This document shows, in pieces, positions 1 to 26,957 of a DNA stretch of 64,000 nt (within the stretch, counting starts at the first letter, position 1; the number at the start of each line of letters is the position of its first letter). The translations under genes were made by a program, and so were the position numbers. Source of the DNA: Candidatus Uhrbacteria bacterium (GTDB lineage Bacteria; Patescibacteriota; Patescibacteriia; JACRJV01). Below the pieces are notes generated by a model, which saw only the letters and a list, made by a program, of their open reading frames with translations, did not search any database and was not told the DNA's origin. The stretch lies in the NCBI GenBank assembly GCA_016215325.1, contig JACRJV010000003.1:36191-100190 (forward strand), read 5' to 3'.

Positions 1-84
1 TTGAACACGAGAGAACCAAAAAAAGTGTTCAAAAATAAAAATGGGAGAATCCATACGGCCTCTGCCAATGCAAAACGACCCATT

Positions 85-858
85 CTAGATCATGAGTTGC
101 CCGCCATTGATCACTATGTTGATTCCATTGAGATACGAAGTGTCTTCTGAACACAGAAACGCCGCAGCTGCGGCAACGTCGTTTGGTTCTGCGATCCGAT
201 GTAACGGGTTCTGTTGTGAAGAGAGTTCGATCAATTTCGATGGCACTTCTGAAAGTAAATCAGTCTTTACCATGCCCGGAGATATCATATTGACCGTGCA
301 CCGATATCGAGAAAGCTCAACGGACATTATCTTGGCAAATCCCATCAGGGCGTACTTTGCCGTGATGTAAGCCGCAAGGCCCCTGGGCGGCTTGCCGATG
401 CAATATTCGGTAAGAATAATAACAAAACGCGTTGGATTGCCCGCCACAAATTGCGACTGTAACGCCTGTACGATCTGCCAAATGCCCTGGACCTGTACTG
501 CGATATGAGATTCAAAATCTCGCCAAGCCGACTCAAGCAGCGGGGTATGCACGATGGGGAGGGTTGGCCCATACACCACCGCATCCAACTGAGGATGCTC
601 CACGCGAATCAACCTCATTGCTGCCTTAACACCTGATCCATCCAATAAATCTAGCGGGTAGAAAGCGACAGCCTTCCCACGGAGTTCGTCCCGTAGCGCT
701 TCCATTCGATCACTAGCATGTGCATATGTTGCACACACATAAAAACCTTCATCAAGCAGGCGCTTCACGATCGCACTCCCAATACCCCCACTTCCACCAA
801 TAATAAGTGCTGTTTTTTGTGGCACAAAATTACTCCGATACTCTTGCATTAGCCTCAC
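85..858 (-). CDS. Short-chain dehydrogenase/reductase (3-oxoacyl-ACP reductase-like)
   Basis: Rossmann motif IIGGSGGIGSAI and catalytic YxxxK (YITAK); length 257 aa typical of the SDR/FabG family. Confidence 0.8.
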   Translation of the reverse strand: MRLMQEYRSNFVPQKTALIIGGSGGIGSAIVKRLLDEGFYVCATYAHASDRMEALRDELRGKAVAFYPLDLLDGSGVKAAMRLIRVEHPQLDAVVYGPTLPIVHTPLLESAWRDFESHIAVQVQGIWQIVQALQSQFVAGNPTRFVIILTEYCIGKPPRGLAAYITAKYALMGFAKIMSVELSRYRCTVNMISPGMVKTDLLSEVPSKLIELSSQQNPLHRIAEPNDVAAAAAFLCSEDTSYLNGINIVINGGQLMI

Positions 859-1252
859 CGTCCACCATCACCTCATCCCCTTTTACTATTTCGGTCTTCA
901 TCGTGATGAGATGGACACTATCATGTTTTGCAATCACGGACCCGCGTACGATCACCGTATCATCGCAAAACATCGGCTTTCGAAATTCCAGGGTTTGACG
1001 CATGTATACCGCATTCCTTCCTGGACAATGCATCCCAATCAATGTTGAAAAAAGACTCGCCGCGAGCATGCCATGGACAATAGTATTACCAAACTGGCTT
1101 TTTGCGCCAAAGAAAGGATCTGTGTGGAGTGGATTGAAATCACCGGTGAACTTTGCAAATTGCATCACCATTTCGTTGGTAATGGTGCGCTCAAATTCAT
1201 ACACTGCACCAACCACAATATCCTCGTATCGCAATTGCGCTGCAGAATGCAT
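830..1252 (-). CDS. MaoC-like (R)-specific enoyl/hydroxyacyl dehydratase (hot-dog fold)
   Basis: 140 aa; FTGDFNPLHTD and HGML motifs characteristic of the MaoC/PhaJ hot-dog family. Confidence 0.7.
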   Translation of the reverse strand: MHSAAQLRYEDIVVGAVYEFERTITNEMVMQFAKFTGDFNPLHTDPFFGAKSQFGNTIVHGMLAASLFSTLIGMHCPGRNAVYMRQTLEFRKPMFCDDTVIVRGSVIAKHDSVHLITMKTEIVKGDEVMVDGEANARVSE

Positions 1253-1264
1253 AAGCCATGTGAT

Positions 1265-1513
1265 TCAAAGGTCGATCCCATGCTTGCGCAATGATGCTTT
1301 AATATCTCCCACATTTTTTACCGCGACAACCTCATCCATCGTAAAATTAACGTTGAACTGCGTTTCGAGCTCGGAGACGAGCATCAGTCCGTTATAGGAA
1401 TCCCAACGAGGTACGGTATCCGGACTTGTCTGATCTGTAACCTCCTGAGCTGAGATGCCGAGTATTTTTGAAAGAATAGAGTGCAATGTATTTATGTTGT
1501 CGTTTGCGCCCAT
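1265..1513 (-). CDS. Acyl carrier protein (stand-alone ACP)
   Basis: ~80 aa; phosphopantetheine-attachment-like WDSYNGLML segment (DS motif); sits between FkbH-like gene and MaoC dehydratase. Start trimmed to internal M. Confidence 0.6.
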   Translation of the reverse strand: MGANDNINTLHSILSKILGISAQEVTDQTSPDTVPRWDSYNGLMLVSELETQFNVNFTMDEVVAVKNVGDIKASLRKHGIDL

Positions 1514-3240
1514 ACTGTTGGGGTCTCTCCAGTGAGAACAGTAATACAATCAGGATACGGATACGATTGAACCCTCACATCGTACTCCCAACGCTGACCA
1601 CTGTCAACGCTTTCAGTACAGACGAAACCATTCTTTTTGTAAAAATCTTTCGCGGGGGAATTCTTCTTGGTGGGAATAAATTCGCCCACGATGGTTCGTA
1701 CGCCACTCGTCCGCGCCTGCTCTATGATATAGACGAGGAGCGCCTCTTCAATACGCCGACCAATGACACGGCAACTGAGCAGGAAGGTATCAATACGCCA
1801 CGACTTTCGCCCTGTTTCCACAATCGCCGCACCAATCGTCCCATGCTCCCCAAACTTATCACTTGCTTTAATAGAAACAATAAGGTGTGCCCCATCTTGG
1901 CTAAACCGCCGTATTTCGTCTTCGCTATAGCGCCGCGTCGTCATGTTGAATTGATTCGTTTTTTGTGTCAGCTGGGCAATCCGAGGGATTGTCATAGTGG
2001 TTGCCAGTTCAATGACGACCGTTATCTGGAGTCCGAGTAAATATTCCGTTATATCCGTCGCCGAGACCTCGAACGCTTTTCGCTGTCGCTGCTGCACATA
2101 CATTAGCCCCCGCTCCCAATCTTCTTCCGTCAACTGCAGGACGTTAAACACGTCGAGCTCTTGGAGCGTCTTGACATACAATGAGGGGTCGTTGGGGAGG
2201 TCGACCACCATTACTTCTGGTAAATATTCTTTCATCATCGTGCGATTGACCGGGTCATCATCAATAAACACCATACTATCAAGACCAATCCCGATCTCTT
2301 TGGCAAGCGAGCGCATATTCGCGACCTTATCCTCCCAATTGATCCGCATTGCCGCGAAATGTTGTTCCCGAAGTACCATATACGAGTGCTGCGAAAAAAC
2401 TTTTGCAACCTCATCAAAATTATTTTTACTATTCACTGCAAGGATCACGCCACGATGGTACAAGGCGAGTAGTGATTTTTGGAACTCCCAAAATGGGCGA
2501 CCCCCCGGAGTAGGCCCTACGGTAATCCCTTCTATCCCATCTTCGCCAAGGATCCCGCCCCATACCGTGTTGTCAAGATCAAGCACAACACATTTTTTAG
2601 TCTGACGGAGCATTGGTTTTATATAAGCCGTGTAGGCTCGCGCAAGCTCTGGCAGGTGGCGAGTATGAAGTTTGATATCTCCAAGATAATACATCTTAGA
2701 GTCAAGGATATGCCGTTTGCCAATGTTCGCACAAAATGCATCATAATCAAACAAGAACACCCGAAAATCGTCCTTGAACGACTCGCGCAGTTTCGCATTC
2801 AGCAGCTCTATCGATTCCTTAAAGCCAAATGGTTGTTTATGCTCCAGGATCCCCAACGGTGAATACACAGGGACTTCAAAATTATGTAACAACACTGTTG
2901 CAGAAGAATATCGCTTTATCGCTTCCACTAGCGAACTAATTTCTTGTATCTTATTCTCGGCCCATTGCCGCCGATCGCTATCTGACATGACATATGGGTG
3001 AAAATAGTAATCACCGAGAATCGACCGCGTATCAAGAAAAAGAATGACGAGTAGTGGCTCGAAGGCGTATAGACGGCTCTGTGGATCAAGGATTTCTTGT
3101 CCATACTGATTGTAACCACCCAAGTAGGTACGGTACGGAAGTCCACTCTCCTGGCATGCAAGACGGACCGCCTCTTCAACGCCACGGGCAGTAAAGCTCG
3201 AAAGAATCGCGATCGTGAACGCTTGTTCATGTTCGGTCAT
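1492..3240 (-). CDS. FkbH-like HAD-IIIC protein (glyceryl-ACP loading type) with N-terminal extension
   Basis: HAD motif VVLDLDNTVWGG, FkbH hallmark TQKTNQFNMTTRRY, GNAT-like C-terminal subdomain; 582 aa. Confidence 0.7.
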   Translation of the reverse strand: MTEHEQAFTIAILSSFTARGVEEAVRLACQESGLPYRTYLGGYNQYGQEILDPQSRLYAFEPLLVILFLDTRSILGDYYFHPYVMSDSDRRQWAENKIQEISSLVEAIKRYSSATVLLHNFEVPVYSPLGILEHKQPFGFKESIELLNAKLRESFKDDFRVFLFDYDAFCANIGKRHILDSKMYYLGDIKLHTRHLPELARAYTAYIKPMLRQTKKCVVLDLDNTVWGGILGEDGIEGITVGPTPGGRPFWEFQKSLLALYHRGVILAVNSKNNFDEVAKVFSQHSYMVLREQHFAAMRINWEDKVANMRSLAKEIGIGLDSMVFIDDDPVNRTMMKEYLPEVMVVDLPNDPSLYVKTLQELDVFNVLQLTEEDWERGLMYVQQRQRKAFEVSATDITEYLLGLQITVVIELATTMTIPRIAQLTQKTNQFNMTTRRYSEDEIRRFSQDGAHLIVSIKASDKFGEHGTIGAAIVETGRKSWRIDTFLLSCRVIGRRIEEALLVYIIEQARTSGVRTIVGEFIPTKKNSPAKDFYKKNGFVCTESVDSGQRWEYDVRVQSYPYPDCITVLTGETPTVWAQTTT

Positions 3241-3595
3241 ACAGAATCGTTACAAATGCAATCGCATATTCTTTGCTATGCGAAAGACTCACTGAAATCT
3301 GAAGGCTCTTTTGTTTTTTTGGCAATCGCATAAACGGTACCCCCTTCTCGTTGTTGCAAATCTCGATCGTGCAATACCCAACGGCATGGATTCCTATACT
3401 AGCAAGCGCTTTTACAGCGGCCTCTTTCCCACAAAACCGTACGGCTAAATGTTGGGCGGGATCTTTTTTCGAAAAACAATAATTGAGCTCTCGGATCGTA
3501 AAAATCCGTTCCAAAAAATGACGATCGTGCGTCCGACGGAGATGGCGAAACCGCGATATGGCTTCAATGTCAACCCCTATGCCAATACATTCCAT
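3227..3595 (-). CDS. acpS: Holo-ACP synthase (4'-phosphopantetheinyl transferase, AcpS type)
   Basis: IGIGVDIEAISRF and KEAAVKALA motifs; ~120 aa from internal start MECIGIG. Confidence 0.75.
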   Translation of the reverse strand: MECIGIGVDIEAISRFRHLRRTHDRHFLERIFTIRELNYCFSKKDPAQHLAVRFCGKEAAVKALASIGIHAVGYCTIEICNNEKGVPFMRLPKKQKSLQISVSLSHSKEYAIAFVTILYDRT

Positions 3596-3737
3596 GCGAA
3601 TAAATGAGAATCTAGACAGTTTGTTGTAGACACCGATACATAGAGAATATCGTACCACCCCCTGCTACTCGAGTCAAAAGCCAACTTGCACTCAATATAC
3701 CGCCCGAACACGCTCTCAAATTTCGATTCGCCATCGC

Positions 3738-3768
3738 TTGACAGTACACACCTCTGCTTTCATACTAT
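3738..3768 (+). promoter_or_regulatory. Candidate sigma70-like promoter for the plus-strand methyltransferase gene
   Basis: TTGACA (3738-3743), 19-nt spacer, TACTAT (3763-3768) in the divergent intergenic region; GGGGGG SD-like run ~10 nt before the GTG start. Confidence 0.3.
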
Positions 3769-3822
3769 GGAATACACGCGCTAGTCCGTTCCCGACCAGA
3801 CACTAGGGGGGTAGCGCCACCC

Positions 3823-4623
3823 GTGAACCATCCAAGAATCTTAATTAATCCATCGACTTTCCCTATGGAAATCCTCGATAGTCGGTATATAAAAAATACT
3901 CCGCAAGAAGAGCTTCAACGGAGAAAAGACTTCTTTACGTTATATAAAGATTGTCCGATACCAGACAATGAAATCCTCTATAACCTCGGGTTGTTTACTA
4001 ACCGGCAGACGCTCTCACGAATCTTATACATGAACGAATTGTACAAAAAAATTATCGAGGTGCATGGCGTTGTTATGGAATTTGGAGTGCGGTGGGGACA
4101 AAATCTTGCGTTGTTCGAATCGTTTCGCGGAATGTATGAGCCATACAACTTCAACCGTACACTCGTCGGGTTCGATACCTGGGAGGGATTCTCCTCGGTA
4201 GACCCAAAAGATGGAACTTCTGACATTGTCGCGACCGGTTCATTTTCTGTCACAAAGGGATATGAAGAATATCTAAACAAAGTTCTGGATTATCATGAAC
4301 ATGAAAGTCCTCTTTCCCATATCAAAAAATATCGTCTCGTCAAAGGGGATGCATCGGTGACGATCGACGAATATTTAAATGAGCACCCGGAGACAATTGT
4401 CGCGCTTGCCTATTTCGACTTTGATATTTATGCGCCGACGAAAAAATGTCTCGCGGCGATACGGGAGCGCCTCACAAAAGGAAGTATTGTTGCTTTTGAC
4501 GAACTGAATTGGCCAGGATTCCCGGGGGAGACGACGGCCCTGAAAGAAGTGTTCGCGCTCAATCGATACCATATTCGGCGCACTCCCTACAATCCCCATT
4601 ATGCGTACATCGTAATCGATTGA
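3823..4623 (+). CDS. TylF/MycF-like class I SAM-dependent O-methyltransferase
   Basis: VMEFGVRWGQN and D.D.Y..T...L......GSIVAFDE pattern resembling macrocin O-methyltransferase family; only plus-strand gene in the island. Confidence 0.5.
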   Translation: MNHPRILINPSTFPMEILDSRYIKNTPQEELQRRKDFFTLYKDCPIPDNEILYNLGLFTNRQTLSRILYMNELYKKIIEVHGVVMEFGVRWGQNLALFESFRGMYEPYNFNRTLVGFDTWEGFSSVDPKDGTSDIVATGSFSVTKGYEEYLNKVLDYHEHESPLSHIKKYRLVKGDASVTIDEYLNEHPETIVALAYFDFDIYAPTKKCLAAIRERLTKGSIVAFDELNWPGFPGETTALKEVFALNRYHIRRTPYNPHYAYIVID

Positions 4624-4640
4624 TCACACAACGAGAGATG

Positions 4641-5774
4641 TCAGAAATCATCGAGTGCAGAAAACAAAACGTCGACAGGGATCATGCGTTCCCACGGCGA
4701 ATCCTCCGGGATTTCTAATACCATTCTGGTCTCCTGAACCTCATATCCAAAAAGTGCAGCAGTGAGTACCCTTGAAACGCTCTGTGGGGTTACCCCCCGT
4801 AAAAGGCGTTCGTTAATAATCACCCCACGTTGCGCTAATTGCCGTCTCACGCATTCCATCAGGGGAGAATCATGATCAGTCGGATTAAGAATTTTTAAAA
4901 GATTCCCTCCATAGTGGGGGTGGCGGGTGAACGAAGAATAGGCGTGCCCCCGTAACATTCGAAGAGCAGGGTGTTCCTGTGGGAGACTCAGTCCGCGTAA
5001 TGCCGCCTCGAACACCGGAGAGGATTGTGAAAAAAAGACCGATGGATACCAGAGCTTGTAGTCAGGCAAAAGTGCAGCTTCGATAATTGTCCCAGCGGGT
5101 TCCGCTACGACATATCCAACAGGCAGAGAAGTAAAAGTATCAATACAAAGATATGCATCGAACCGTGCGGTGAATGAAGAATTCTTTATTTTTGACATCC
5201 AAAGTTCTTTTGGCCGTTCGAGGAATACCGAGAAGTATTGATTGATACTTCGATGCATCCGCTCAAGAAACGGGACATCACTATCCTTAATGCATCGAAA
5301 CTGAATTGACGTTGCTTGAGGATGGGGTGGATTAAGAAGACGAATGTTCTTCTCAACAGGGGTCCCCCAGAATCCATGCCGAACAAAGAAATGATCAACT
5401 GCTCGACGAGCAAAAATCAAACAAAAATCCAGTCCTCTGTTGCTCATCTCACTTAAAACAGATTGCGTCATAGAGTGGAAGACGGCCCCGCCCCTACGAT
5501 ACCGAGGTTCAACCACAATGGCTGCTATCCCCCCGACACTAAATTCTTGCCCAAAGACCATGAGGCGACGAGTCACGGTTCTTACTGCGCCGACGAGAGA
5601 ATCTCCTTCTTTGAGTATAAATAAATTTTTTTTATTCAGCGTCGAATCGTAAATGCGTGTCACATCAAAGACTTCCTTCGCGTGAAAATAAGAAGGTCCA
5701 TACGCTTTGTATAGGAGCTCATACGCCTCCTGCTCATCTTTCTTGCTACGCACCACACGCACCAGACCGACCAT
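4641..5774 (-). CDS. GNAT-family N-acetyltransferase, two-domain (Eis-like length)
   Basis: GNAT motif A region VVEPRYRRGGAVFHSM...GLDFCLIF; 377 aa. Confidence 0.5.
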   Translation of the reverse strand: MVGLVRVVRSKKDEQEAYELLYKAYGPSYFHAKEVFDVTRIYDSTLNKKNLFILKEGDSLVGAVRTVTRRLMVFGQEFSVGGIAAIVVEPRYRRGGAVFHSMTQSVLSEMSNRGLDFCLIFARRAVDHFFVRHGFWGTPVEKNIRLLNPPHPQATSIQFRCIKDSDVPFLERMHRSINQYFSVFLERPKELWMSKIKNSSFTARFDAYLCIDTFTSLPVGYVVAEPAGTIIEAALLPDYKLWYPSVFFSQSSPVFEAALRGLSLPQEHPALRMLRGHAYSSFTRHPHYGGNLLKILNPTDHDSPLMECVRRQLAQRGVIINERLLRGVTPQSVSRVLTAALFGYEVQETRMVLEIPEDSPWERMIPVDVLFSALDDF

Positions 5775-5813
5775 AGTATTACAAAGATGTTATTTCAAAC
5801 AACATTTATCCAT

Positions 5814-6884
5814 TTAGTGTGCACGGGATCGAATGATCGCACAGATCCGTCGGACGATCGTCTCCGTCCATTGTGCATGGCAACCAACCGCAAGCGAGAG
5901 ACGATAGTCGGGCTCAACCATATTACGGTTCCAGTCAAAATGCAACAGTGGAACTACAACGCGACAATCCTCCCAAATACTGCGTGACCACTCTTTAAGT
6001 TCGTTTTGACTCCCCTGGATAGGGATTGCGAAGGGGACGATATCTGAATCATCACAATGTGGAACGCGGTGGGGCAACATTTCTTGCGCAATCCACCAAA
6101 GGGTTCTTCGTCGCTGTCCTTCGCAAAGAAGTTCTTTCGTTGTTTGCGGAAGCGATCCCGCAGAACAATCTGGGAAGGGTATAAGTTCTGGAAGATATCC
6201 ATAAACCCCCTCGATATCATAACTCACATCCCCTATACTGTCCTCTTTTTTGTGCTTTCGATGGTATTGCCTGAGAATACGATGCGCTTTTTCGACCCAT
6301 ACACGTTGAACACCCTGATCCTGCCTTGAGGCGGTTGTCCAGGACTTCCATATCGCAGAGTTCCTGCTCACAATACCACCCCCCATCGCACAAGGAAACA
6401 ATTTAGAGAGGCTCACCACAGAAAGATCACCCCAACCCATAAGATACTCCCCTCTATATTGAGAAAAGAGAGTATTCGCCATGTTATTGATAATAATCCA
6501 TTTTTTTTTCTTTGCCAGTGCTTCGATACGATCAATGCGTTGTGGGAATCCAAATTGATGGTACACGAGAATGGCTCTTGTGCGTTTGGATGGGATGCGT
6601 GCCGGAAATGCAGTGCGTGCAAGGGCAGAAAGCACACAGTGCCCTAAAAATGGCGGGACGTAGGTCTCGTCATTCCGCTGGAACCCCAGTGCGCGTAAAC
6701 CAAAAACCATGGCAGCGCGAGCGCAAGAAAATGGATACAGGTCAACTCCCGTAGCGCTACGATATCCAGAAAGAAAAGACTGGAGAGTGCCAAATCCGCG
6801 TTTATATCCCGGATAGAGTGTAATCATACATCCACTATGCAAGTAGTTTCTCCCCAGCGAAGACGATAACAATCTTCCCTCCAA
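5814..6884 (-). CDS. DegT/DnrJ/EryC1-like (fold-type I PLP) protein, possibly degenerate
   Basis: Collinear with DegT core: KTRAILVYHQFGFP...SLSKLFPCAMGGGIV (Lys present, PLP Asp replaced by Asn). Confidence 0.4.
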   Translation of the reverse strand: MEGRLLSSSLGRNYLHSGCMITLYPGYKRGFGTLQSFLSGYRSATGVDLYPFSCARAAMVFGLRALGFQRNDETYVPPFLGHCVLSALARTAFPARIPSKRTRAILVYHQFGFPQRIDRIEALAKKKKWIIINNMANTLFSQYRGEYLMGWGDLSVVSLSKLFPCAMGGGIVSRNSAIWKSWTTASRQDQGVQRVWVEKAHRILRQYHRKHKKEDSIGDVSYDIEGVYGYLPELIPFPDCSAGSLPQTTKELLCEGQRRRTLWWIAQEMLPHRVPHCDDSDIVPFAIPIQGSQNELKEWSRSIWEDCRVVVPLLHFDWNRNMVEPDYRLSLAVGCHAQWTETIVRRICAIIRSRAH

Positions 6885-7848
6885 AACCTAATTTGAAAAA
6901 CTCGATGTTCCGCTCCTTATCGCTTCCCCCGTTCACCAATCCAAACTCAAAGTAGGAGCATCCTCGCCGTCGTGCCTCTTGAATTCCCGTCCAAAGACCA
7001 AGATGCCCAATACCGGAGCGAGAAGGATAGTCCGGATGCGTCGCCGCTGAGGCATAAAAGGCATGCTTGTTAAAATAATAAAACAGATATGCCCCGACGG
7101 TCTTTCCGGCATCTCGTACCAACACGAGATACGCCTGGCCGTGCTCAATCATCCGATACATGACATAAAAAGTCTCTTTTGGACGCGTCTCTCTCCCTGC
7201 GGCTAACGCATGGAGTATGTGATATTCTTCACATTGATCAATGGTATAATTTGTTGCGTCTATCACAACGGTCTCATACGTCCGTTGAGCTCGGTTGATG
7301 AGAGGCTTATACGATGAGCGCATATGCGCCCATATTCTCTGTTCTTCCCCGTCACATCGAAGCACGAGACCGTGAAGCGTCTTCGGACGATACCCAAACT
7401 CTTCAAGATTATTGTAAAAAAGATTGCCCTGCATTATTGTAGAGCAATCCATCAGAATACGGTGATGCTGTGCGCTGTGCGCTCGCGCAAGTACTGCGAT
7501 CCGATCAAATACTACTTGCCGCACCAAACGTCCCCGTTTCGTCTCCGGTTCATCTACAAAAACCGGGGCACGTAAATGCCAACTCTCTAAAAAGCTGTAA
7601 CTTCGAATCTCTTCCTCAGCAGTCAACCAAAGTGGGACAATCGCAACGGCATCCTTTTCGGCAACATCGACCACAACAAACGAGTCTTCTCTCAAAAGAC
7701 GTGCTCCAAGCACAAGCCGTTCGTATGCCCTCACCAAAGGGGTATAGAATGGCGATACACTTGAACGCTCCAATACTTCATTCCAATATGCTTCAAATTT
7801 CGTGTCAGAAGAATCGATACAGTTTAACATATCTGCCCGTGCACGCAC
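6835..7848 (-). CDS. FemAB-like / BioF2-like (Acetyltransf_6) acyl- or aminoacyl-transferase
   Basis: C-terminal YFEFGLVNGG...FFKLGFGG matches the FemAB-like GNAT-fold family terminal signature FKxxFGG. Confidence 0.55.
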   Translation of the reverse strand: MRARADMLNCIDSSDTKFEAYWNEVLERSSVSPFYTPLVRAYERLVLGARLLREDSFVVVDVAEKDAVAIVPLWLTAEEEIRSYSFLESWHLRAPVFVDEPETKRGRLVRQVVFDRIAVLARAHSAQHHRILMDCSTIMQGNLFYNNLEEFGYRPKTLHGLVLRCDGEEQRIWAHMRSSYKPLINRAQRTYETVVIDATNYTIDQCEEYHILHALAAGRETRPKETFYVMYRMIEHGQAYLVLVRDAGKTVGAYLFYYFNKHAFYASAATHPDYPSRSGIGHLGLWTGIQEARRRGCSYFEFGLVNGGSDKERNIEFFKLGFGGKIVIVFAGEKLLA

Positions 7849-12559: not shown

Positions 12560-13750
12560 CTATCCAAGTTCGATAACGACTGCTTGTTCGGCTTGGGCCA
12601 AACGAGCCTCGGCCTCTTCTGCGTTTTCGGCCATCGAAATGATGTGCCCGATGCGATCGGCACCAGAAGTTAATGTTCGCACGGGATCTCCGGGTTTCAC
12701 ATAGATCTCCATTTCATAGATTCCCTCCATCGCTCGTGCTGTTTCAACACCAGTGATGGCATGGATGCGCCCGCTAGACGGGGAGGCAAAGAATTTTATC
12801 GATGAAGCCAGTTGCTTCGTGGGGATGAGATCGGGCGGTAGGCCCAACGAAGCTTTAATCGTCGCTTGGATGAGATCAATACCAGAAATCATTGGGAGTA
12901 TGTCAGTAAAAACCTTGAACCCGGGGCCTCGCGCCGCTAGTTCAACTGGAACGGGTCCGTCTTTTGTCATCATGAGCTCCATATGCACTGGCCCAGTAGT
13001 AATTCCCACTGCAGTAATCGCATGCTTTGCCACAGCGATAATACGCTGTTGAACGAGAGAAGGATACCGCGATGGGAAGGTTACTTGAATATCTAAAAGG
13101 TAGGGTGGAGGTGTTCTTTTTTTATCAGAAAGACCAATGATACGAATCGTTCCCCGATCGACGAATGCCTCCACGCTCACTTCTATACCCTCCATAAAAT
13201 CTTCCACAACGACTTTCTTTTTCTGAGAATACCCAATGGCACATTCGTATGCTTCTTTCAACTCCATTTCATGGGTCACTTTTCGTACGCCCCGGCTGCC
13301 TGCACTATCCGCAGGCTTAACAACCACCGGCAGTCCGATTTTATCAACAACAGCAAGTAAGGTGGAAAAGTCTAAAACAGGGTATGATGTCGGGGAAGGT
13401 ACCCCGTGGGCCACAAATGCCTGACGCATGAGTGCTTTATCGGTACACCGCTCAGCGACTGACACCGGAATCCCGGGTAATTGGAGTGCTTCGGCAATCG
13501 CCGCAACCGTTTTTACCGTAACGTCGGAGGCAACTGTAACCACCCCGTCAATGGAACAGGAACGCGCTATCTCCAGATTTTGTTCAATATCCTTTACATC
13601 CACAACAAATGCTCTATCCGCATATCGTAACCCCGGCGCCTCTGCGCTCCCATCTGTTGCCACGACCGCGAGTCCCATCTTTTTTGCGGTCTGAATCCCC
13701 TTCAACTGGAAAGGGCCGGCGCCGATGCACAGAAGTGTTTTGGTGTTCAT
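12560..13750 (-). CDS. ATP-grasp domain ligase (carboxylate-amine ligase type)
   Basis: PVVVKPADSAGSRGV and EEFMEGIEVSVEAF-like ATP-grasp core; 396 aa; embedded between pseG-like and methyltransferase. Confidence 0.7.
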   Translation of the reverse strand: MNTKTLLCIGAGPFQLKGIQTAKKMGLAVVATDGSAEAPGLRYADRAFVVDVKDIEQNLEIARSCSIDGVVTVASDVTVKTVAAIAEALQLPGIPVSVAERCTDKALMRQAFVAHGVPSPTSYPVLDFSTLLAVVDKIGLPVVVKPADSAGSRGVRKVTHEMELKEAYECAIGYSQKKKVVVEDFMEGIEVSVEAFVDRGTIRIIGLSDKKRTPPPYLLDIQVTFPSRYPSLVQQRIIAVAKHAITAVGITTGPVHMELMMTKDGPVPVELAARGPGFKVFTDILPMISGIDLIQATIKASLGLPPDLIPTKQLASSIKFFASPSSGRIHAITGVETARAMEGIYEMEIYVKPGDPVRTLTSGADRIGHIISMAENAEEAEARLAQAEQAVVIELG

Positions 13751-14763
13751 ACTAATGATGCATGGCGTATGAGTTCCTTTCGGATAATCTCAAGCACGCG
13801 CTCTCTCCCGTGACCATCGACAAGTTGCTGTGCTCGATGACCCATGGCTTCGCGATCGTGCCAATGCTTAATAAGCCTCTGGACGCGTTGTACATGATTC
13901 CCCTGCGTTGTCTGCCGCGATTCTAGCAGAAGTACCCCTCCCTTCTTCGCAATGCTTCTGGCAAGCAGGAGTTCCGCATTATTTTGAGGAATAATCACAC
14001 ATGGACAACCGAGGGCCATTAATTCCGCCAAAGTGACTCCAGCTCCACAAAATGCGATATCGATGGAACCCATGAGCGCGCCCATCTCTTGAACATTCGT
14101 CTCGATTCTGTATCGATGGTTCTTCCCAAGCCGATATTCCACTCCTTTGCGAAATTTGGGTCCCACAATAACATACACGCTTACCGGAGGGTGTGCAAGA
14201 CGCTCAAGAATAGCAATGGATTTCTGCGTGTTATTGCGAGGGTCTGCACCGCCAAATGTCAATAACACCCGCCTGGCCATACCCTGAGAAAATGATTTTT
14301 GCTTCCGATACGACAGCACCTCGTCCCGCACAATAGAATACTCGAGCCCTTCATAAATTCTCCTAAACAAAACGCTTTGGCCCTTCTTTAGATTATGATT
14401 GTAAATGTTGATTGCCGCGCAGATGCGTGGATCTTGGTAGTAAAAATAATCAAGTGCGACTACCGGTGGGTGAGGAACGCCGTAGAATGACTCCATCATC
14501 CCCAGCGCATACGGCTTGTCATAGATAATCAGATTTGGGTAATAAGAAAGAATGGTCTGTCGGAGAGTACCCTGAACAATATTCCGCACACCCTCTTGCT
14601 GCAGTTTCCGATACACCTGCCTCGTTACCCCTGCTGCGTGAAAAATCACCTCATGGTTGAGTGCCAACGCACGATACAGACTGATATCGCGCACAATATG
14701 CCCCAAGCCTTGGAGGTGACTTCCGTAACTACTTATTAGAATAGTATAGTGTTGGTGTTTCAT
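13747..14763 (-). CDS. pseG: PseG-like UDP-sugar hydrolase (GT-B fold, MurG-like)
   Basis: ILISSYGSHLQGLGHIVRDISL matches the PseG N-terminal G-GH--RD motif; LLTFGGAD and C-terminal GAGVTLAEL collinear with C. jejuni PseG. Confidence 0.65.
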   Translation of the reverse strand: MKHQHYTILISSYGSHLQGLGHIVRDISLYRALALNHEVIFHAAGVTRQVYRKLQQEGVRNIVQGTLRQTILSYYPNLIIYDKPYALGMMESFYGVPHPPVVALDYFYYQDPRICAAINIYNHNLKKGQSVLFRRIYEGLEYSIVRDEVLSYRKQKSFSQGMARRVLLTFGGADPRNNTQKSIAILERLAHPPVSVYVIVGPKFRKGVEYRLGKNHRYRIETNVQEMGALMGSIDIAFCGAGVTLAELMALGCPCVIIPQNNAELLLARSIAKKGGVLLLESRQTTQGNHVQRVQRLIKHWHDREAMGHRAQQLVDGHGRERVLEIIRKELIRHASLV

Positions 14764-15818
14764 GCATCGAACGTATCCGTTGTCACCGGATCAAATGCTT
14801 CCATATTAACACGCGCCCGCTTCCCAATCACCCGATCGAGATCCTTCGGCAAAAGTCCAAGGGCAGGCCGCACGATGGAGAGCATTTCTCGCTTGATGAT
14901 GTCTCCTTTTTTAATGGCTCGATTAGTAAAGATACTCCTCCGCCCTCTCCTGTAATAGGTGAGTTCGCTTTCGGCAACGCATTTTTGTGGTCGACCAATT
15001 GCCTGTTCGACGTCCCGAATTCCGCGCACCATTGCCGCGAGCTCTGCCGGTTCAAGGGCGAACTTATGATCCGGTCCCGGAAGATTCCTATCCAGTGTAA
15101 AATGCTTTTCGTAAATACTCGCTCCTCGCGCAACCGCAGCGATAGGAATGGTGAGACCTATGGTGTGATCAGAATATCCGATCGGACACATGAACTGTTC
15201 ACGCATGACGTCCATGGCAGCCAGATGGAGATCATTCATCGGGGGAGGATATCCAACACCACAATGCAGGAGCGCATACTGTGTGTTGCCGGTTTGTTCC
15301 ACTGCTTCAACGGCATCCCGTATTTCTTCAATCGTCGCCATTCCTGTTGAAAGGATCAGCGGTTTTCCGGTCTGCGCCGTGTAGCGAATCAAGGGGAGGT
15401 GGGTAATCTCATACGACGCAATCTTATAAAATGGGGCGTCAATTGCCTCAAGTGCATCCACCGCGTCCTCATCGAAAGGAGTCGCCGCAAACATAATATC
15501 TCGCTGCTTCGCATACTCAGTAAGACGCGGTAACCATTCTCTCGGTAATTCGACCTTTCGATAGAGTTCATGGAGCGTTTTTCCATATCGTCCAAATGTG
15601 TCACTCCCAAGGTCGACGGTAGGATCCTGTGTAGCAGCGGCCATAGTGTCGGCAGAAAATACTTGAAATTTTACCACATCCGCTCCCGACTCTTTTGCCG
15701 CATCAATGAGTTGTAATGCTTGTTCAAAATTACGGTCATGGTTACTACCCGCTTCAGCAATTATAAAGCAGGGTGCGTTATCGCCAATGCGTCGCCCTTG
15801 TATTGTGAGTGCGTGCAT
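14760..15818 (-). CDS. pseI: Nonulosonic acid synthase (NeuB/PseI/LegI family) with SAF domain
   Basis: PCFIIAEAGSNHDRN signature, SAF C-terminal domain; 4-nt ATGA overlap with pseG-like gene. Confidence 0.85.
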   Translation of the reverse strand: MHALTIQGRRIGDNAPCFIIAEAGSNHDRNFEQALQLIDAAKESGADVVKFQVFSADTMAAATQDPTVDLGSDTFGRYGKTLHELYRKVELPREWLPRLTEYAKQRDIMFAATPFDEDAVDALEAIDAPFYKIASYEITHLPLIRYTAQTGKPLILSTGMATIEEIRDAVEAVEQTGNTQYALLHCGVGYPPPMNDLHLAAMDVMREQFMCPIGYSDHTIGLTIPIAAVARGASIYEKHFTLDRNLPGPDHKFALEPAELAAMVRGIRDVEQAIGRPQKCVAESELTYYRRGRRSIFTNRAIKKGDIIKREMLSIVRPALGLLPKDLDRVIGKRARVNMEAFDPVTTDTFDA

Positions 15819-15824
15819 AAGGTT

Positions 15825-16583
15825 TTACGATGAACCCTTCTCTGCGCTCAGTGACTTCAGGAGACCTTCATTACGAACAATATGACTGTTGGTTGCCATC
15901 ATCTCAGGATGTGCCGAAAGGTATTGCAGAACGTCTTCTCCTGTAAACTCCGGATGCCGCGGGTACAGGGCCTCAATAATTATTTTTACTACCTCAAAAT
16001 CCTCGGGCTCATCCACGGTAATCCGAAATCTGCTGTCATCGCTTCCATTGTCAAGGGTATGCTTACGAAAGAACTCAGAATGACGATGCAAATACAGTGT
16101 AGCATGCTCGCGCTCAGAAGGTTTTATCGCCTCTTTCCAAGCGCGCTCGAGTGCCGCCAATGTAAATATTTCACAATCAAGTCCTTCGGCAAATGTTGGA
16201 CCGCTATGAACAAAATCATACGCCCCATTCTGGAATGTCGTAACAAGCCGATCGACGATTTGAGGATCGATCAGTGGACAATCACCAGTAATCCGGACAA
16301 TTGGGTCAATCGAAAACCGCAAGGCAGTTTGATAATAGCGATCCAGCACATCCTGCTCTAATCCACGAAATACCGGAACGCGTTGCTGCGCGCAGAAATC
16401 CACAATTTGGTCATCCTCAACATTCGTCGTTGTCGCTACAATAATGCGATTAATTCCAGTTGCACGCCGGAGACGCTCAAGCTGATACTCAAGGAGGGGC
16501 CGACCAAGTACTGTTTTGAGTACTTTACCCGGAAGCCTTGTCGAAGTCATCCTCGCTTGGATAATTGCGCCGGTCGTGGCCAT
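15825..16583 (-). CDS. pseF: CMP-nonulosonic acid cytidylyltransferase (PseF/NeuA/SpsF family)
   Basis: N-terminal AIIQARMTSTRLPGKVL cytidylyltransferase motif; 252 aa. Confidence 0.8.
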   Translation of the reverse strand: MATTGAIIQARMTSTRLPGKVLKTVLGRPLLEYQLERLRRATGINRIIVATTTNVEDDQIVDFCAQQRVPVFRGLEQDVLDRYYQTALRFSIDPIVRITGDCPLIDPQIVDRLVTTFQNGAYDFVHSGPTFAEGLDCEIFTLAALERAWKEAIKPSEREHATLYLHRHSEFFRKHTLDNGSDDSRFRITVDEPEDFEVVKIIIEALYPRHPEFTGEDVLQYLSAHPEMMATNSHIVRNEGLLKSLSAEKGSS

Positions 16584-17512
16584 ACTAATGGATTTACTAT
16601 ACGTTCATTAATGTCCCGAAAGTGCTCACGTACATATCCGACAAGAGCCGGAGGGTATTCACGTTGCCAAGCCCGACAATTTGTCTCTACCTGGTCAAGG
16701 GTCTCAGCCCCAAACAAAATCTTTGCCTGTGGAAATGCCAGCTTCAAATAGCCAAACGCAAATTCCTGCCGCGTGAGCTCAAATATTCCTGCCGCCTCTT
16801 CAACAAGTTCGAGTGAAGGGCGAGCGAACGTCATTGTCTCAGGAAGTTGGCGCGAATCGATAAAGAGTAATCCTTGAAGAAATGCGCTTCGAATATAGAC
16901 CGTCGCGCTCTTTTTTTTCGCGAGCTCAAAAACCCCTGCACTCTCAAATCTCCTGTCTAAAATGTTGGTTGGAAGTTGAATTATGGTAAGCCCATCCAAC
17001 TCAAGTGCTCGGAGCGCTATGGAAGGAGTGTACACAGAAACCCCCACATAATCAACATAACCTTGAGAGACTAAATCCTTGAGTATTCTCCCCAACCCCT
17101 TCCCCCATAATCCAAGCAGTTCTTCGCGATGCAAAAGTACACCGTGGAGTTTCTTCACTCCAAGACGTACACACGACGCTTGGATCGCATCAGTAATTGC
17201 CCTCGCATCTAAGTAATCAAGGTTTGGATCGAGCTTTGTAATGAGCTTCGCCGTGCCCCCCGCGTTCAATACTCTAAGAGCTTCCCCTAAAACAGCTTCA
17301 CTCTCTCCATACCCCGGGGCAGTATCAAACTCGTCGATTCCGTGCTCCAAAGCAGTACGGACAATTTCTTCCGCTATCTCATGATTCGGCTGCCCATTTT
17401 TATTAGCGATGCCATAGGGCATACCAAGCTGCACTGTCCCAAGTACGAGTGCTGGAAGACTCTTTCTCGCGTTACTAGTCATATCATTATGCAAGACGCC
17501 GAAATCCTGCAT
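16547..17512 (-). CDS. Aldo/keto reductase
   Basis: LGTVQLGMPYG and DTAPGYGESE AKR motifs. Confidence 0.75.
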   Translation of the reverse strand: MQDFGVLHNDMTSNARKSLPALVLGTVQLGMPYGIANKNGQPNHEIAEEIVRTALEHGIDEFDTAPGYGESEAVLGEALRVLNAGGTAKLITKLDPNLDYLDARAITDAIQASCVRLGVKKLHGVLLHREELLGLWGKGLGRILKDLVSQGYVDYVGVSVYTPSIALRALELDGLTIIQLPTNILDRRFESAGVFELAKKKSATVYIRSAFLQGLLFIDSRQLPETMTFARPSLELVEEAAGIFELTRQEFAFGYLKLAFPQAKILFGAETLDQVETNCRAWQREYPPALVGYVREHFRDINERIVNPLVWPRPAQLSKRG

Positions 17513-20941: not shown

Positions 20942-20956
20942 ACCCCAGAGTGTTTA

Positions 20957-25646: not shown

Positions 25647-26957
<1,311 letters not shown>

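What the first reader, a model, noticed from the sequence alone, without database searches (positions are those of the whole stretch)
85..3658. ACP-dependent acyl-donor module (FkbH-like loader, ACP, AcpS, MaoC dehydratase, SDR reductase) embedded in a nonulosonic-acid glycan island
Five consecutive, translationally coupled genes encode an FkbH-type HAD-IIIC enzyme, a stand-alone ACP, its phosphopantetheinyl transferase, a hot-dog dehydratase and an SDR ketoreductase/oxidase. FkbH-family enzymes are established to dephosphorylate 1,3-bisphosphoglycerate and tether glyceryl to an ACP. Here the module sits next to pseB/C/G/I/F homologues, two methyltransferases and GNAT/FemAB-like transferases. 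That suggests synthesis of an ACP-bound glyceroyl or hydroxyacyl unit, possibly O-methylated, that is transferred to an amino group of a pseudaminic-acid-like sugar. N-glyceroyl and di-O-methylglyceroyl nonulosonic acids are known chemically (Tannerella, Campylobacter glycans), but an FkbH/ACP route to them has not, to my knowledge, been described.
Basis: partly seen in the sequence, partly recalled or inferred. Interest (0 to 1): 0.75.

Follow-up and report, generated by a model that had tools for sequence, protein, structure and literature searches.

The report
Carrier-protein acyl donor for surface sugars
Five adjacent genes in an uncultured Candidatus Uhrbacteria bacterium encode a self-contained carrier-protein system that most likely turns a glycolysis intermediate into a three-carbon hydroxy-acid (lactyl, possibly glyceroyl) used to decorate a sialic-acid-like surface sugar; this chemistry is known from antibiotic synthesis but has not been shown for sugars.

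Summary
Window 85-3658 (minus strand) carries AcpS, an FkbH-type loader, a small ACP, a MaoC dehydratase and a FabG-like SDR. All pass curated HMM cut-offs, keep their catalytic motifs, and overlap or nearly abut. They sit at the edge of a low-GC island holding PseB, PseC and PseI.

In 84 related loci, FkbH plus ACP lies among glycan genes and never beside a PKS or NRPS megasynthase. This holds across CPR bacteria, archaea, Omnitrophota, Firmicutes and Acidobacteria. A nonulosonic-acid synthase is within 10 kb in only 12 of the 84.

The likely end product is not glyceroyl. A PKS of the FR901464 producer carries the same four domains fused, MaoC-SDR-FkbH-ACP. There a DH-KR pair converts glyceryl-S-ACP into lactyl-S-ACP. 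So lactyl-ACP, via pyruvoyl-ACP, is the best guess.

The transferase and the acceptor are unresolved. The neighbouring GNAT/FemAB/DegT-like trio is an independent cassette, and the adjacent methyltransferase is CalS11-like, a sugar O-methyltransferase type.

In the open-access literature I found no glycan-linked FkbH route. The only mention is the uncharacterised cj1302 of Campylobacter jejuni.

Verdict: a new variant of a known kind; interest about 0.6.

The parts
3227..3658 (-). AcpS-type phosphopantetheinyl transferase. The ORF starts at a GTG at 3658; the probable start is the ATG at 3595, giving 122 aa. It would convert apo-ACP to holo-ACP.
   Evidence: PF01648 E 1.5e-19. TIGR00516 scores 72.4 against a cut-off of 59.8. 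Its end overlaps the FkbH start by 14 nt. An AcpS is linked to the module in 7 of 7 CPR and 11 of 17 archaeal loci, but in 0 of 7 Firmicutes and 1 of 44 other bacterial loci.
1492..3240 (-). FkbH-like loader, 582 aa. It has three parts: an N-terminal FkbH_N domain, a HAD-IIIC phosphatase domain, and a C-terminal GNAT-fold transferase domain with an invariant Cys490.
   Evidence: TIGR01686 E 1.1e-90, 304 bits against a cut-off of 146.65. PDB 3slr (BF1531 N-terminal part) E 2e-50. HAD motifs and S-C-R are at least 95% conserved in 83 homologues. AF2 model plus Foldseek: residues about 400-560 match many GNATs with target-normalised TM 0.6-0.75.
1265..1513 (-). Dedicated acyl carrier protein, 82 aa. 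The predicted phosphopantetheine site is Ser39, in W-D-S.
   Evidence: PF00550 scores 24.1 bits against a gathering score of 20.8. W-D-S is at least 90% conserved in 54 family members. An ACP directly follows FkbH in most of the 84 loci. It is far below the housekeeping AcpP cut-offs.
830..1252 (-). MaoC-type hot-dog dehydratase, 140 aa. Proposed role: dehydrate glyceryl-S-ACP to enol-pyruvoyl/pyruvoyl-S-ACP.
   Evidence: PF01575 E 1.2e-20. G-D-x-x-x-H is conserved in 25 homologues. It is 31% identical (E 5e-11) to the MaoC domain at the N-terminus of the FkbH-containing PKS of Burkholderia sp. FERM BP-3421.
85..858 (-). FabG-like SDR ketoreductase. The probable start is the ATG at 849. Proposed role: reduce pyruvoyl-S-ACP to lactyl-S-ACP.
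   Evidence: PF13561 E 6e-38. Best solved-structure hits are FabG and acetoacetyl-CoA reductases. Y164/K168 are conserved, with Thr150 in the catalytic Ser position. It co-occurs with MaoC in 15 of 24 MaoC loci, p=2e-7. It aligns weakly to the adh_short domain of the same PKS.
3823..4623 (+). Divergently transcribed CalS11-like O-methyltransferase. It is possibly linked to the module, and its target is unresolved (sugar hydroxyl or acyl hydroxyl).
   Evidence: PDB 4gf5/3tos CalS11 (TDP-rhamnose 3'-O-methyltransferase) E 4e-63. A 63%-identical homologue lies between FkbH and ACP in L011.
4641..7848 (-). Trio of GNAT/Eis-like (5774..4641), degenerate DegT/PLP_IMCC1989-like (6884..5814) and FemAB-like (7848..6835) genes. 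These are the only acyltransferase candidates in the window, but they form an independent cassette.
   Evidence: Pfam and NCBIfam hits. The same trio occurs in nonulosonic-acid islands with no FkbH within 10 kb (L086, L087). A FemAB-like gene of the same family lies two genes upstream of the module in L022.
13747..21991 (-). Pseudaminic-acid core, the probable acceptor pathway: PseG-like 14763..13747, PseI 15818..14760, cytidylyltransferase 16583..15825, aldo-keto reductase, GSA-aminotransferase-like, RmlD-PseC fusion 20941..18809, PseB 21991..20957. There is no PseH.
   Evidence: PseB, PseC and PseI exceed their NCBIfam equivalog cut-offs. The PseG-like and PseF-like genes do not.

Best explanation
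The five genes form a self-contained, carrier-protein-based factory for a three-carbon acyl donor.

Proposed steps:
1. AcpS converts the dedicated ACP to its holo form. This is inferred from family membership.
2. The FkbH-like enzyme takes 1,3-bisphosphoglycerate. Its HAD domain removes the 3-phosphate, and its GNAT-fold domain with the invariant Cys passes the glyceryl group to the ACP. This is inferred from the established activity of FkbH enzymes; motifs and fold are shown here.
3. The MaoC dehydratase removes water from glyceryl-S-ACP, giving enol-pyruvoyl/pyruvoyl-S-ACP.
4. The FabG-like SDR reduces the 2-keto group to lactyl-S-ACP. Steps 3 and 4 are inferred by analogy with the FR901464/lankacidin loading chemistry.
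5. A transferase that is not identified passes the lactyl group to an amino group of a nucleotide-sugar intermediate of the island. The most economical acceptor is the 4-amino group of the Pse precursor, because no PseH is encoded. That would give a 7-N-lactyl pseudaminic acid. This step is speculative.
For: 1. All five proteins pass curated cut-offs and keep their catalytic residues.
2. The FkbH C-terminal domain is a GNAT fold, with the invariant Cys at the beta4/alpha3 cofactor-binding position.
3. The gene order AcpS-FkbH-ACP-MaoC-SDR recurs in L003, L004, L005, L019, L022, L063, L088 and L089. The order MaoC-SDR-FkbH-ACP occurs in L038 and L040. These loci come from CPR bacteria, archaea, Firmicutes and environmental contigs with no assigned taxon.
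4. The neighbours are glycosyltransferases, sugar aminotransferases, flippases, Wzy and NeuB/PseI. No ORF exceeds 1214 aa in the 84 loci, so there is no PKS or NRPS.
5. A PKS of Burkholderia sp. FERM BP-3421 begins MaoC(10-98)-adh_short(280-467)-FkbH(about 545-1033)-PP-binding(1156-1217)-KS. This strain is the FR901464 producer (PMC5640593). [quoted passage not shown] 2014; PMC6162330).
6. MaoC and SDR co-occur (15 of 24 MaoC loci, p=2e-7). MaoC never co-occurs with the alternative methylmalonyl-CoA-epimerase-like partner (0 of 24 against 14 of 60, p=0.008). This fits alternative tailoring branches of one glyceryl-ACP intermediate.
7. Other loci place dedicated acyltransferases directly after the module: AAC(3)-like (PF02522, E 1e-43, including a MaoC-AAC(3) fusion in L012), E2-type, hexapeptide, MBOAT and small GNATs.
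8. C. jejuni 11168 makes 5-N-(2,3-di-O-methylglyceroyl)-Pse. Its flagellar glycosylation locus holds an FkbH-domain gene (cj1302), an aminopeptidase-like gene (cj1295) genetically tied to that modification, and an N-acetyltransferase (cj1296/7) (PMC7099621; PMC3068675).
Against: - No biochemistry exists for any glycan-associated FkbH.
- The window's MaoC and SDR are only 31% and 21% identical to the PKS domains. Functional equivalence is therefore an analogy, not orthology.
- I know of no reported N-lactyl nonulosonic acid.
- Nine of 24 MaoC loci show no SDR in range, which would leave a pyruvoyl product.
- The SDR has Thr where the catalytic Ser is expected.
- No dedicated transferase is visible. 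The window has no AAC(3)-like, DUF4910, MBOAT, E2-type or hexapeptide partner, and the neighbouring GNAT trio occurs without FkbH elsewhere.
- The module lies at the window edge, so the next gene is unseen.
- The module also occurs in many loci with no nonulosonic-acid genes, so the acceptor could be another amino sugar, or a hydroxyl group.
Confidence: 0.5

Rival explanations
1. The final donor is glyceryl-ACP, possibly O-methylated, giving N-glyceroyl or O-methylglyceroyl pseudaminic acid. MaoC and SDR would act on something else, for example the sugar or a different acyl chain.
For: N-glyceroyl and di-O-methylglyceroyl Pse exist (PMC5378307; PMC3068675). The C. jejuni locus has an FkbH gene. 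A methyltransferase lies next to the module, and its 63%-identical homologue sits between FkbH and ACP in L011. Most FkbH-ACP loci (about 60 of 84) have neither MaoC nor SDR and presumably deliver glyceroyl.
Against: Here MaoC and SDR overlap or abut the ACP gene in one operon, and they co-vary with the module across phyla. The same four domains are fused in a PKS loader whose chemistry goes on to lactyl. The methyltransferase is CalS11-like, a sugar O-methyltransferase type.
Confidence: 0.2
2. The FabG-like SDR and MaoC carry out ordinary beta-carbon processing of a short fatty-acyl chain on the ACP, for example a 3-hydroxybutyryl group, which is a common N-acyl group on Pse. The FkbH-like protein would load a different substrate.
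For: The SDR's best matches are FabG and acetoacetyl-CoA reductases. MaoC enzymes normally act on 3-hydroxyacyl thioesters. 3-Hydroxybutyryl Pse derivatives are well known (my own knowledge).
Against: No ketosynthase, thiolase or acyl-ACP ligase lies in the gap-free island 85-32000 or next to the module in related loci. The FkbH HAD and Cys motifs are intact. Making 3-hydroxybutyryl does not need a dehydratase.
Confidence: 0.1
3. The SDR oxidises glyceryl-ACP, as in the methoxymalonyl-ACP pathway, towards 2-hydroxy-3-oxopropionyl- or hydroxymalonyl-ACP. That product is then methylated and transferred.
For: The FkbH/FkbJ/FkbK/FkbI/FkbG logic is established (PMC7489565). A methyltransferase is adjacent.
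Against: No FkbI-type acyl-CoA dehydrogenase and no FkbK-type 3-hydroxyacyl-CoA dehydrogenase is present. A MaoC dehydratase has no role in that route. The methyltransferase is not FkbG-like but CalS11-like.
Confidence: 0.05
4. The module has nothing to do with the glycan. It would make a small lipid or metabolite and lie next to the island by chance.
For: The module sits at the edge of the island and of the window. No transferase has been identified.
Against: Glycan genes flank the module in essentially every related locus examined, across many phyla. The module has the same low GC as the island.
Confidence: 0.05

Closest known systems
Lactyl-S-ACP starter-unit module of FR901464 and lankacidin polyketide synthases (DH*-KR*-FkbH-ACP)
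   Same: It has the same four domain families: MaoC-type dehydratase, adh_short reductase, FkbH and ACP. I saw this directly in a PKS of the FR901464 producer. The proposed chemistry is also the same: 1,3-bisphosphoglycerate to glyceryl-ACP, then pyruvoyl-ACP, then lactyl-ACP (PMC4765723).
   Different: Here the four parts are discrete small proteins with their own AcpS. No ketosynthase follows. The context is sugar biosynthesis. Sequence identity to the PKS domains is low (31% and 21%). I did not verify by accession that the PKS I examined is the fr9 loader itself.
FkbGHIJK methoxymalonyl-ACP pathway and the tetronate 'glycerate-utilisation operon'
   Same: [quoted passage not shown]
   Different: There is no FkbI/FkbK-type dehydrogenase, no FkbG-type methyltransferase and no FabH-like tetronate-forming enzyme. 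The downstream user would be a glycan acyltransferase rather than a PKS.
Campylobacter jejuni NCTC 11168 flagellar glycosylation genes cj1295-cj1302, which yield 5-N-(2,3-di-O-methylglyceroyl)-Pse
   Same: An FkbH-domain gene sits in a pseudaminic-acid locus. Many relatives of the window module are followed by an AAC(3)-like N-acyltransferase and a DUF4910/DUF2172 aminopeptidase-like protein. These match the published descriptions of cj1296/7 and cj1295.
   Different: The window has neither the AAC(3)-like nor the DUF4910 partner, but it does have MaoC and SDR. As far as I could find, the role of cj1302 has never been tested. I did not test the equivalence of DUF4910 proteins and Cj1295 with sequences.
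Vibrio cholerae O1 tetronate acylation of perosamine (wbeK-N genes)
   Same: A dedicated gene set in an O-antigen locus builds a hydroxy-acid that N-acylates an amino sugar (PMC3441752). An ACP is involved, from my own knowledge.
   Different: That system uses an adenylating ligase-type activation (WbeL has an ATP-binding domain) and makes a C4 acid. No FkbH is involved.
Dlt system (DltA/DltC/DltB) for D-alanylation of teichoic acids
   Same: A small dedicated carrier protein donates an acyl group to a cell-surface polymer. MBOAT genes lie next to FkbH-ACP in L017, L019 and L063 and in Sinorhizobium meliloti pSymB.
   Different: Loading there is by an adenylation enzyme, not FkbH. There is no MBOAT in this window.

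Membership tests
FkbH family (TIGR01686; HAD-IIIC glyceryl transferase/phosphatase) | Profile match above the curated cut-off over the FkbH domain | tested here: met
   TIGR01686 scores 304.1 bits against 146.65 over residues 214-539. TIGR01681 scores 66.3 against 35.75.
FkbH family (TIGR01686; HAD-IIIC glyceryl transferase/phosphatase) | HAD catalytic motifs: DxDxT, the S/T motif, Lys, and DD | tested here: met
   D221-L-D-N-T225, S271, K305 and D327-D328 are at least 95% conserved in 83 homologues.
FkbH family (TIGR01686; HAD-IIIC glyceryl transferase/phosphatase) | C-terminal transferase domain with a conserved cysteine that carries the glyceryl group (the role of the Cys is recalled from the OzmB work) | tested here: met
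   Invariant S489-C490-R491-x-x-G-R, within a GNAT-fold domain. That this is the catalytic residue is an inference.
FkbH family (TIGR01686; HAD-IIIC glyceryl transferase/phosphatase) | Cognate carrier protein with a phosphopantetheine serine | tested here: met
   The ACP gene overlaps the FkbH stop. PF00550 is above its gathering score. W-D-S is conserved in 54 homologues.
FkbH family (TIGR01686; HAD-IIIC glyceryl transferase/phosphatase) | Formation of glyceryl-S-ACP from 1,3-bisphosphoglycerate | not testable with these tools
   Needs an enzyme assay with intact-protein MS.
Lactyl-ACP forming loader (FR901464/lankacidin type) | Dehydratase, ketoreductase, FkbH and ACP acting together | tested here: met
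   The domain set is MaoC, adh_short, FkbH and PP-binding, both in the window and in the FERM BP-3421 PKS.
Lactyl-ACP forming loader (FR901464/lankacidin type) | Specific relatedness of the dehydratase and reductase to the characterised DH* and KR* | tested here: inconclusive
   MaoC is 31% identical (E 5e-11). SDR is 21% identical (E 6e-6). They are the same families, but orthology is not shown.
Lactyl-ACP forming loader (FR901464/lankacidin type) | Delivery to a ketosynthase as a polyketide starter | tested here: not met
   No KS lies in the island or in the 84 related loci, where the largest ORF is 1214 aa.
Methoxymalonyl-ACP pathway (FkbGHIJK) | FkbK-type 3-hydroxyacyl-CoA dehydrogenase, FkbI-type acyl-CoA dehydrogenase and FkbG-type O-methyltransferase | tested here: not met
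   None is found among the island genes. The only adjacent methyltransferase is CalS11-like.
Pseudaminic acid pathway (PseB, C, H, G, I, F) | PseB, PseC and PseI equivalogs | tested here: met
   Scores of 506 against 407.75, 491.2 against 423.5, and 345.7 against 340.25.
Pseudaminic acid pathway (PseB, C, H, G, I, F) | PseH N-acetyltransferase | tested here: not met
   No PseH hit for any island protein, and the gene row 85-22508 has no gap.
Pseudaminic acid pathway (PseB, C, H, G, I, F) | PseG hydrolase and PseF cytidylyltransferase equivalogs | tested here: inconclusive
   The PseG model scores 69.4 against 153.55. The PseF model scores 25.2 against 205.7. Related proteins are present but below cut-off.
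Cj1295-type glycan acyl-exchange cassette (AAC(3)-like N-acyltransferase plus DUF4910/DUF2172 protein next to FkbH-ACP) | Presence of the AAC(3)-like and DUF4910 partners | tested here: not met
   They are present in 11 and 8 related loci. tblastn finds neither in the 64-kb window.

The most novel reading that the evidence does not exclude
AcpS-FkbH-ACP, with or without MaoC-SDR, is a mobile and self-sufficient carrier-protein cassette. It has spread into lineages that otherwise have little or no ACP-based metabolism: CPR bacteria, and archaea including DPANN lineages. There it supplies lactyl, pyruvoyl or glyceroyl groups for surface glycans. That would mean an undescribed class of N- or O-acyl glycan modifications and an ACP-dependent pathway in archaea. 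It would also explain the long-unassigned origin of glyceroyl-type substituents on pseudaminic and legionaminic acids.
Probability: 0.3. Interest if true: 0.75.

Novelty: new variant of a known kind. Interest (0 to 1): 0.6.

Why it matters
Acyl decorations on nonulosonic acids and other amino sugars shape phage, antibody and lectin recognition. The genetic origin of the glyceroyl-type groups is explicitly unresolved (PMC5378307).

This module gives a concrete, testable route from a glycolytic intermediate, through a carrier protein, to the sugar. The comparative data indicate it is not a curiosity of one genome. The family has thousands of members, placed among glycan genes in all 84 loci examined, in bacteria and archaea. 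It comes with interchangeable tailoring enzymes (epimerase-like, or dehydratase plus reductase) and interchangeable transferases.

It also links a polyketide-loading chemistry to cell-surface biology. It further suggests why genome-reduced CPR and archaeal lineages would carry an ACP and AcpS at all.

Tried and rejected
1. I tried to see the gene downstream of the SDR, beyond the window start. Exact-protein look-ups found either nothing or only a 2.2-kb contig ending inside the SDR. An exact 54-nt scan of metagenome contigs found nothing. The downstream gene is therefore unknown.
2. I tested whether the GNAT/Eis-like neighbour is the module's transferase. Its family is rare (17 proteins). In L086 and L087 it sits in a PLP_IMCC1989/FemAB-like/GNAT trio with no FkbH nearby. 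I rejected it as a dedicated partner. It shows no similarity to the proteins that follow the module in Acidobacteria or in L003.
3. The promoter and terminator scan of 1-4000 was not above chance for promoters, and no terminator-like site lies downstream of the SDR stop.
4. I considered the methoxymalonyl-type oxidation route and fatty-acid-type 3-hydroxyacyl synthesis. I rejected them because the dehydrogenases and the ketosynthase are missing.
5. I followed an FkbH-like hit on Sinorhizobium meliloti Rm41 pSymB, hoping it lay in the Pse K-antigen region. Instead it is an MBOAT-linked variant next to a Capsule_synth gene.
6. One literature query was badly framed and gave nothing useful. The queries that required FkbH found only PKS/NRPS papers plus one mention of cj1302.
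7. The whole-protein AF2 model has only moderate confidence (pLDDT 70.6), with the HAD core poorly modelled. I used only the well-modelled C-terminal domain.

Full report
**What is in the sequence**

On the minus strand of window 85-3658 lie five genes in one row.
- A phosphopantetheinyl transferase, 3658..3227. The probable start is the ATG at 3595.
- A 582-aa FkbH-like protein, 3240..1492.
- An 82-aa carrier protein, 1513..1265.
- A 140-aa MaoC hot-dog protein, 1252..830.
- A FabG-like short-chain reductase, 849/858..85.

All five pass curated thresholds.
- PF01648 scores 70.5 bits, and TIGR00516 scores 72.4 against a cut-off of 59.8.
- TIGR01686 'FkbH domain' scores 304.1 against 146.65. 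TIGR01681 (HAD-IIIC) scores 66.3 against 35.75.
- PF00550 scores 24.1 against 20.8.
- PF01575 scores 73.7, and PF13561 scores 131.2.

The junctions are -14, -22, +12 and -20 nt. A gene call on an identical short public contig gives the same ACP and SDR starts.

The exact FkbH-like protein is on record as 'HAD-IIIC family phosphatase [Candidatus Uhrbacteria bacterium]' on a 109-kb contig.

**Catalytic equipment**

I aligned 83 full-length homologues of the FkbH-like protein.
- At least 95% conserved are the HAD motifs (DLDNT 221-225, S271, K305, DD 327-328).
- Also conserved are a C-terminal QLTQKTNQFN block and S489-C490-R491-x-x-G-R.

The only solved relative is the N-terminal, phosphatase-containing part of Bacteroides fragilis BF1531 (3slr, E 2e-50).

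An AlphaFold model has moderate overall confidence (pLDDT 70.6) but good confidence for residues about 400-560. Foldseek matches that C-terminal part to many GNAT acyltransferases, with target-normalised TM 0.6-0.75. The invariant Cys sits at the end of strand 4, where GNATs bind the pantetheine pyrophosphate.

The other four proteins also keep their key residues.
- The ACP family keeps W-D-S.
- The MaoC family keeps the hydratase G-D-x-x-x-H.
- The SDR keeps its glycine-rich loop and Y164-x-x-x-K168, with Thr150 in the usual Ser position.

**Context in the window**

Genes run without gaps from 85 to about 32 kb.
- PseB, PseC (fused to an RmlD-like domain) and PseI exceed their NCBIfam equivalog cut-offs.
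- A PseG-like protein and a cytidylyltransferase do not reach theirs.
- No PseH is present.

The first 24 kb have 46-49% GC, against 52-58% further on. The nonulosonic-acid part therefore looks acquired.

Next to the module are:
- a divergently transcribed methyltransferase;
- a trio of GNAT/Eis-like, degenerate DegT-like and FemAB-like genes.

**Comparative evidence**

The FkbH-like protein has more than 7,900 relatives with E <= 1e-20. They are 53-69% identical even in Woesearchaeota and Omnitrophota.

I collected 84 loci with up to 10 kb of flank. I then clustered their ORFs. Counts out of the 84 loci:

| Feature | Loci |
|---|---|
| ACP present | 54 by clustering, 67 by tblastn |
| MaoC | 24-28 |
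| AcpS | 24-25 |
| SDR | 19-21 |

Where an ACP is present it usually follows FkbH directly. The full order AcpS-FkbH-ACP-MaoC-SDR recurs in CPR bacteria and in environmental contigs with no assigned taxon. In archaeal loci the order is FkbH-ACP-MaoC-SDR, with AcpS on the opposite strand. In Firmicutes loci the order is MaoC-SDR-FkbH-ACP.

The surroundings are glycosyltransferases, sugar dehydratases and aminotransferases, WbpA/B/D/E/I-like genes, flippases, Wzy and deacetylases. The largest ORF in any locus is 1214 aa, so no PKS or NRPS is present.

The module is not tied to nonulosonic acids. A NeuB/PseI homologue lies within 10 kb in only 12 of 84 loci.

One caveat applies. These loci are the closest relatives of the window protein. 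PKS-type FkbH proteins are more distant, at 28-31% identity in Streptomyces and Burkholderia plasmids.

**Partners that recur with the module**

Several acyltransferase types sit directly after the module in different loci.
- An AAC(3)-like N-acyltransferase (PF02522, E 1e-43) in 11 loci. L012 carries a MaoC-AAC(3) fusion.
- An E2-type acyltransferase in three archaeal loci.
- Hexapeptide transferases in 13 loci.
- MBOATs in 3 loci.
- Small GNAT-like proteins in the closest relatives L004 and L089.

Two further partners recur.
- The AAC(3)-like gene is often followed by a DUF4910/DUF2172 'aminopeptidase-like' protein (8 loci; p=3e-5 for co-occurrence).
- A methylmalonyl-CoA-epimerase-like glyoxalase-fold protein occurs in 14 loci and never together with MaoC (0 of 24 against 14 of 60, p=0.008).

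MaoC and SDR go together (15 of 24 MaoC loci, p=2e-7).

I read this as one intermediate with alternative tailoring branches and interchangeable transferases.

AcpS is linked to the module in 7 of 7 CPR and 11 of 17 archaeal loci. It is linked in 0 of 7 Firmicutes and 1 of 44 other bacterial loci. This fits hosts that lack a housekeeping AcpS; that archaea generally lack ACP is from my own knowledge.

**What the product is likely to be**

The decisive lead for the next steps came from a tblastn search against plasmids.
- One hit lies inside a 4,929-aa megasynthase on plasmid p1 of Burkholderia sp. FERM BP-3421.
- That strain is the FR901464 producer (PMC5640593).
- The protein begins MaoC_dehydratase (10-98), adh_short (280-467), the FkbH-like stretch (about 545-1033), PP-binding (1156-1217) and then a ketosynthase.
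- These are the same four families that the window encodes as separate proteins.

[quoted passage not shown] 2014; see also PMC6162330).

By analogy, the window's MaoC would dehydrate glyceryl-ACP to pyruvoyl-ACP, and the SDR would reduce it to lactyl-ACP. Identity to the PKS domains is low: 31% for MaoC and 21% for the SDR. This is therefore an analogy of domain logic, not shown orthology. I did not verify by accession that this PKS is the fr9 loader.

**What remains open: transferase, acceptor and methylation**

- The window has none of the dedicated partner transferases.
- The GNAT/Eis-like neighbour belongs to a rare family. In other nonulosonic-acid islands it travels with the DegT-like and FemAB-like genes and without any FkbH. 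The trio is therefore an independent cassette, though it could still be used.
- The module ends 84 nt from the window start, and I could not recover the flanking DNA.
- Because PseH is missing, the 4-amino group of the Pse precursor is the most economical acceptor. This is speculation.
- The adjacent methyltransferase is a close relative of CalS11, a TDP-rhamnose 3'-O-methyltransferase (E 4e-63), and rhamnose genes lie in the island. Yet a 63%-identical homologue sits between FkbH and ACP in L011. Its target is undecided.

**Relation to the literature**

The searches that required FkbH terms returned only PKS/NRPS papers. The one exception is a remark that cj1302, in the C. jejuni flagellar glycosylation locus, has an FkbH domain (PMC7099621).

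In that strain, Pse carries a 5-N-(2,3-di-O-methylglyceroyl) group. The modification depends on cj1295, an 'aminopeptidase-like polysaccharide biosynthesis protein'. Beside it lies the N-acetyltransferase cj1296/7 (PMC3068675). These descriptions match the DUF4910 and AAC(3)-like partners found here, although I did not compare sequences.

A 2026 study still treats cj1295 as a putative transferase and does not discuss cj1299-cj1302. For Tannerella forsythia Pse5Am7Gra, the genetic basis of the glyceroyl group is called 'a major challenge' (PMC5378307).

Subscription-only papers were not searchable. Absence of prior description is therefore probable, not certain.

**Verdict**

- It is probably wrong in the final acyl group, which is more likely lactyl than glyceroyl.
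- It is too specific about nonulosonic acids, the transferases and O-methylation.
- This is a new variant of a known kind: polyketide-style starter-unit chemistry redeployed as discrete proteins in glycan loci, widespread and uncharacterised.
- Interest is about 0.6.

Noticed in passing
window 1-24000 versus 24000-58000: GC content is 46-49% in the nonulosonic-acid part of the island and 51-58% in the following housekeeping and surface-protein region. This suggests the Pse/FkbH part was acquired horizontally.
   Followed up: partly
window 4641-7848; L086 7674-11119; L087 546-3843: A conserved trio of a PLP_IMCC1989 (DegT-like) protein, a FemAB/Acetyltransf_6-like protein and an Eis-like GNAT recurs in nonulosonic-acid islands, with an ATP-grasp protein, a methyltransferase and a NeuB or cytidylyltransferase gene. 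It is independent of FkbH and its function is unknown.
   Followed up: partly
window 7865-9907 (minus): A 680-aa protein has an N-terminal half that is a 4-hydroxy-2-oxovalerate aldolase (TIGR03217 scores 300 against a cut-off of 286). It is fused to an unassigned C-terminal half of about 340 aa, inside the sugar island.
   Followed up: no
window 18809-20941 (minus): PseC (residues 312-704, above the equivalog cut-off) is fused to an N-terminal RmlD-like reductase domain (residues 5-292).
   Followed up: no
L012 9632-10867: A single 411-aa ORF fuses a MaoC-like domain to an AAC(3)-like N-acyltransferase directly after FkbH-ACP. This fusion links the dehydratase to the N-acyl transfer step.
   Followed up: partly
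L017, L019, L063; L090 8187-13650 (Sinorhizobium meliloti Rm41 pSymB): MBOAT membrane O-acyltransferases lie next to FkbH-ACP. In S. meliloti pSymB the row is MBOAT, an unknown 438-aa protein, a 687-aa FkbH-like protein and a 112-aa ORF, close to a Capsule_synth gene. This suggests a Dlt-like extracytoplasmic O-acylation variant.
   Followed up: partly
84 related loci (L001-L084): The MaoC dehydratase and a methylmalonyl-CoA-epimerase-like glyoxalase-fold protein are mutually exclusive partners of FkbH-ACP (0 of 24 against 14 of 60). The epimerase-like protein could invert C2 of glyceryl-ACP.
   Followed up: partly
window 85-858, residue 150 of the SDR: The position of the catalytic Ser of classical SDRs is Thr, and this is conserved in at least 70% of the 21 family members.
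   Followed up: no
window 39587-49894 (minus) and 49996-51471: A 3,435-aa protein carries fn3, TIG, CARDB and DUF4215 domains, followed by a Big_5 protein. These are probable giant surface proteins and possible glycosylation targets.
   Followed up: no
window 25647-26924 (minus): An S-adenosylhomocysteine hydrolase sits among the sugar genes. It may serve the island's methyltransferases.
   Followed up: no
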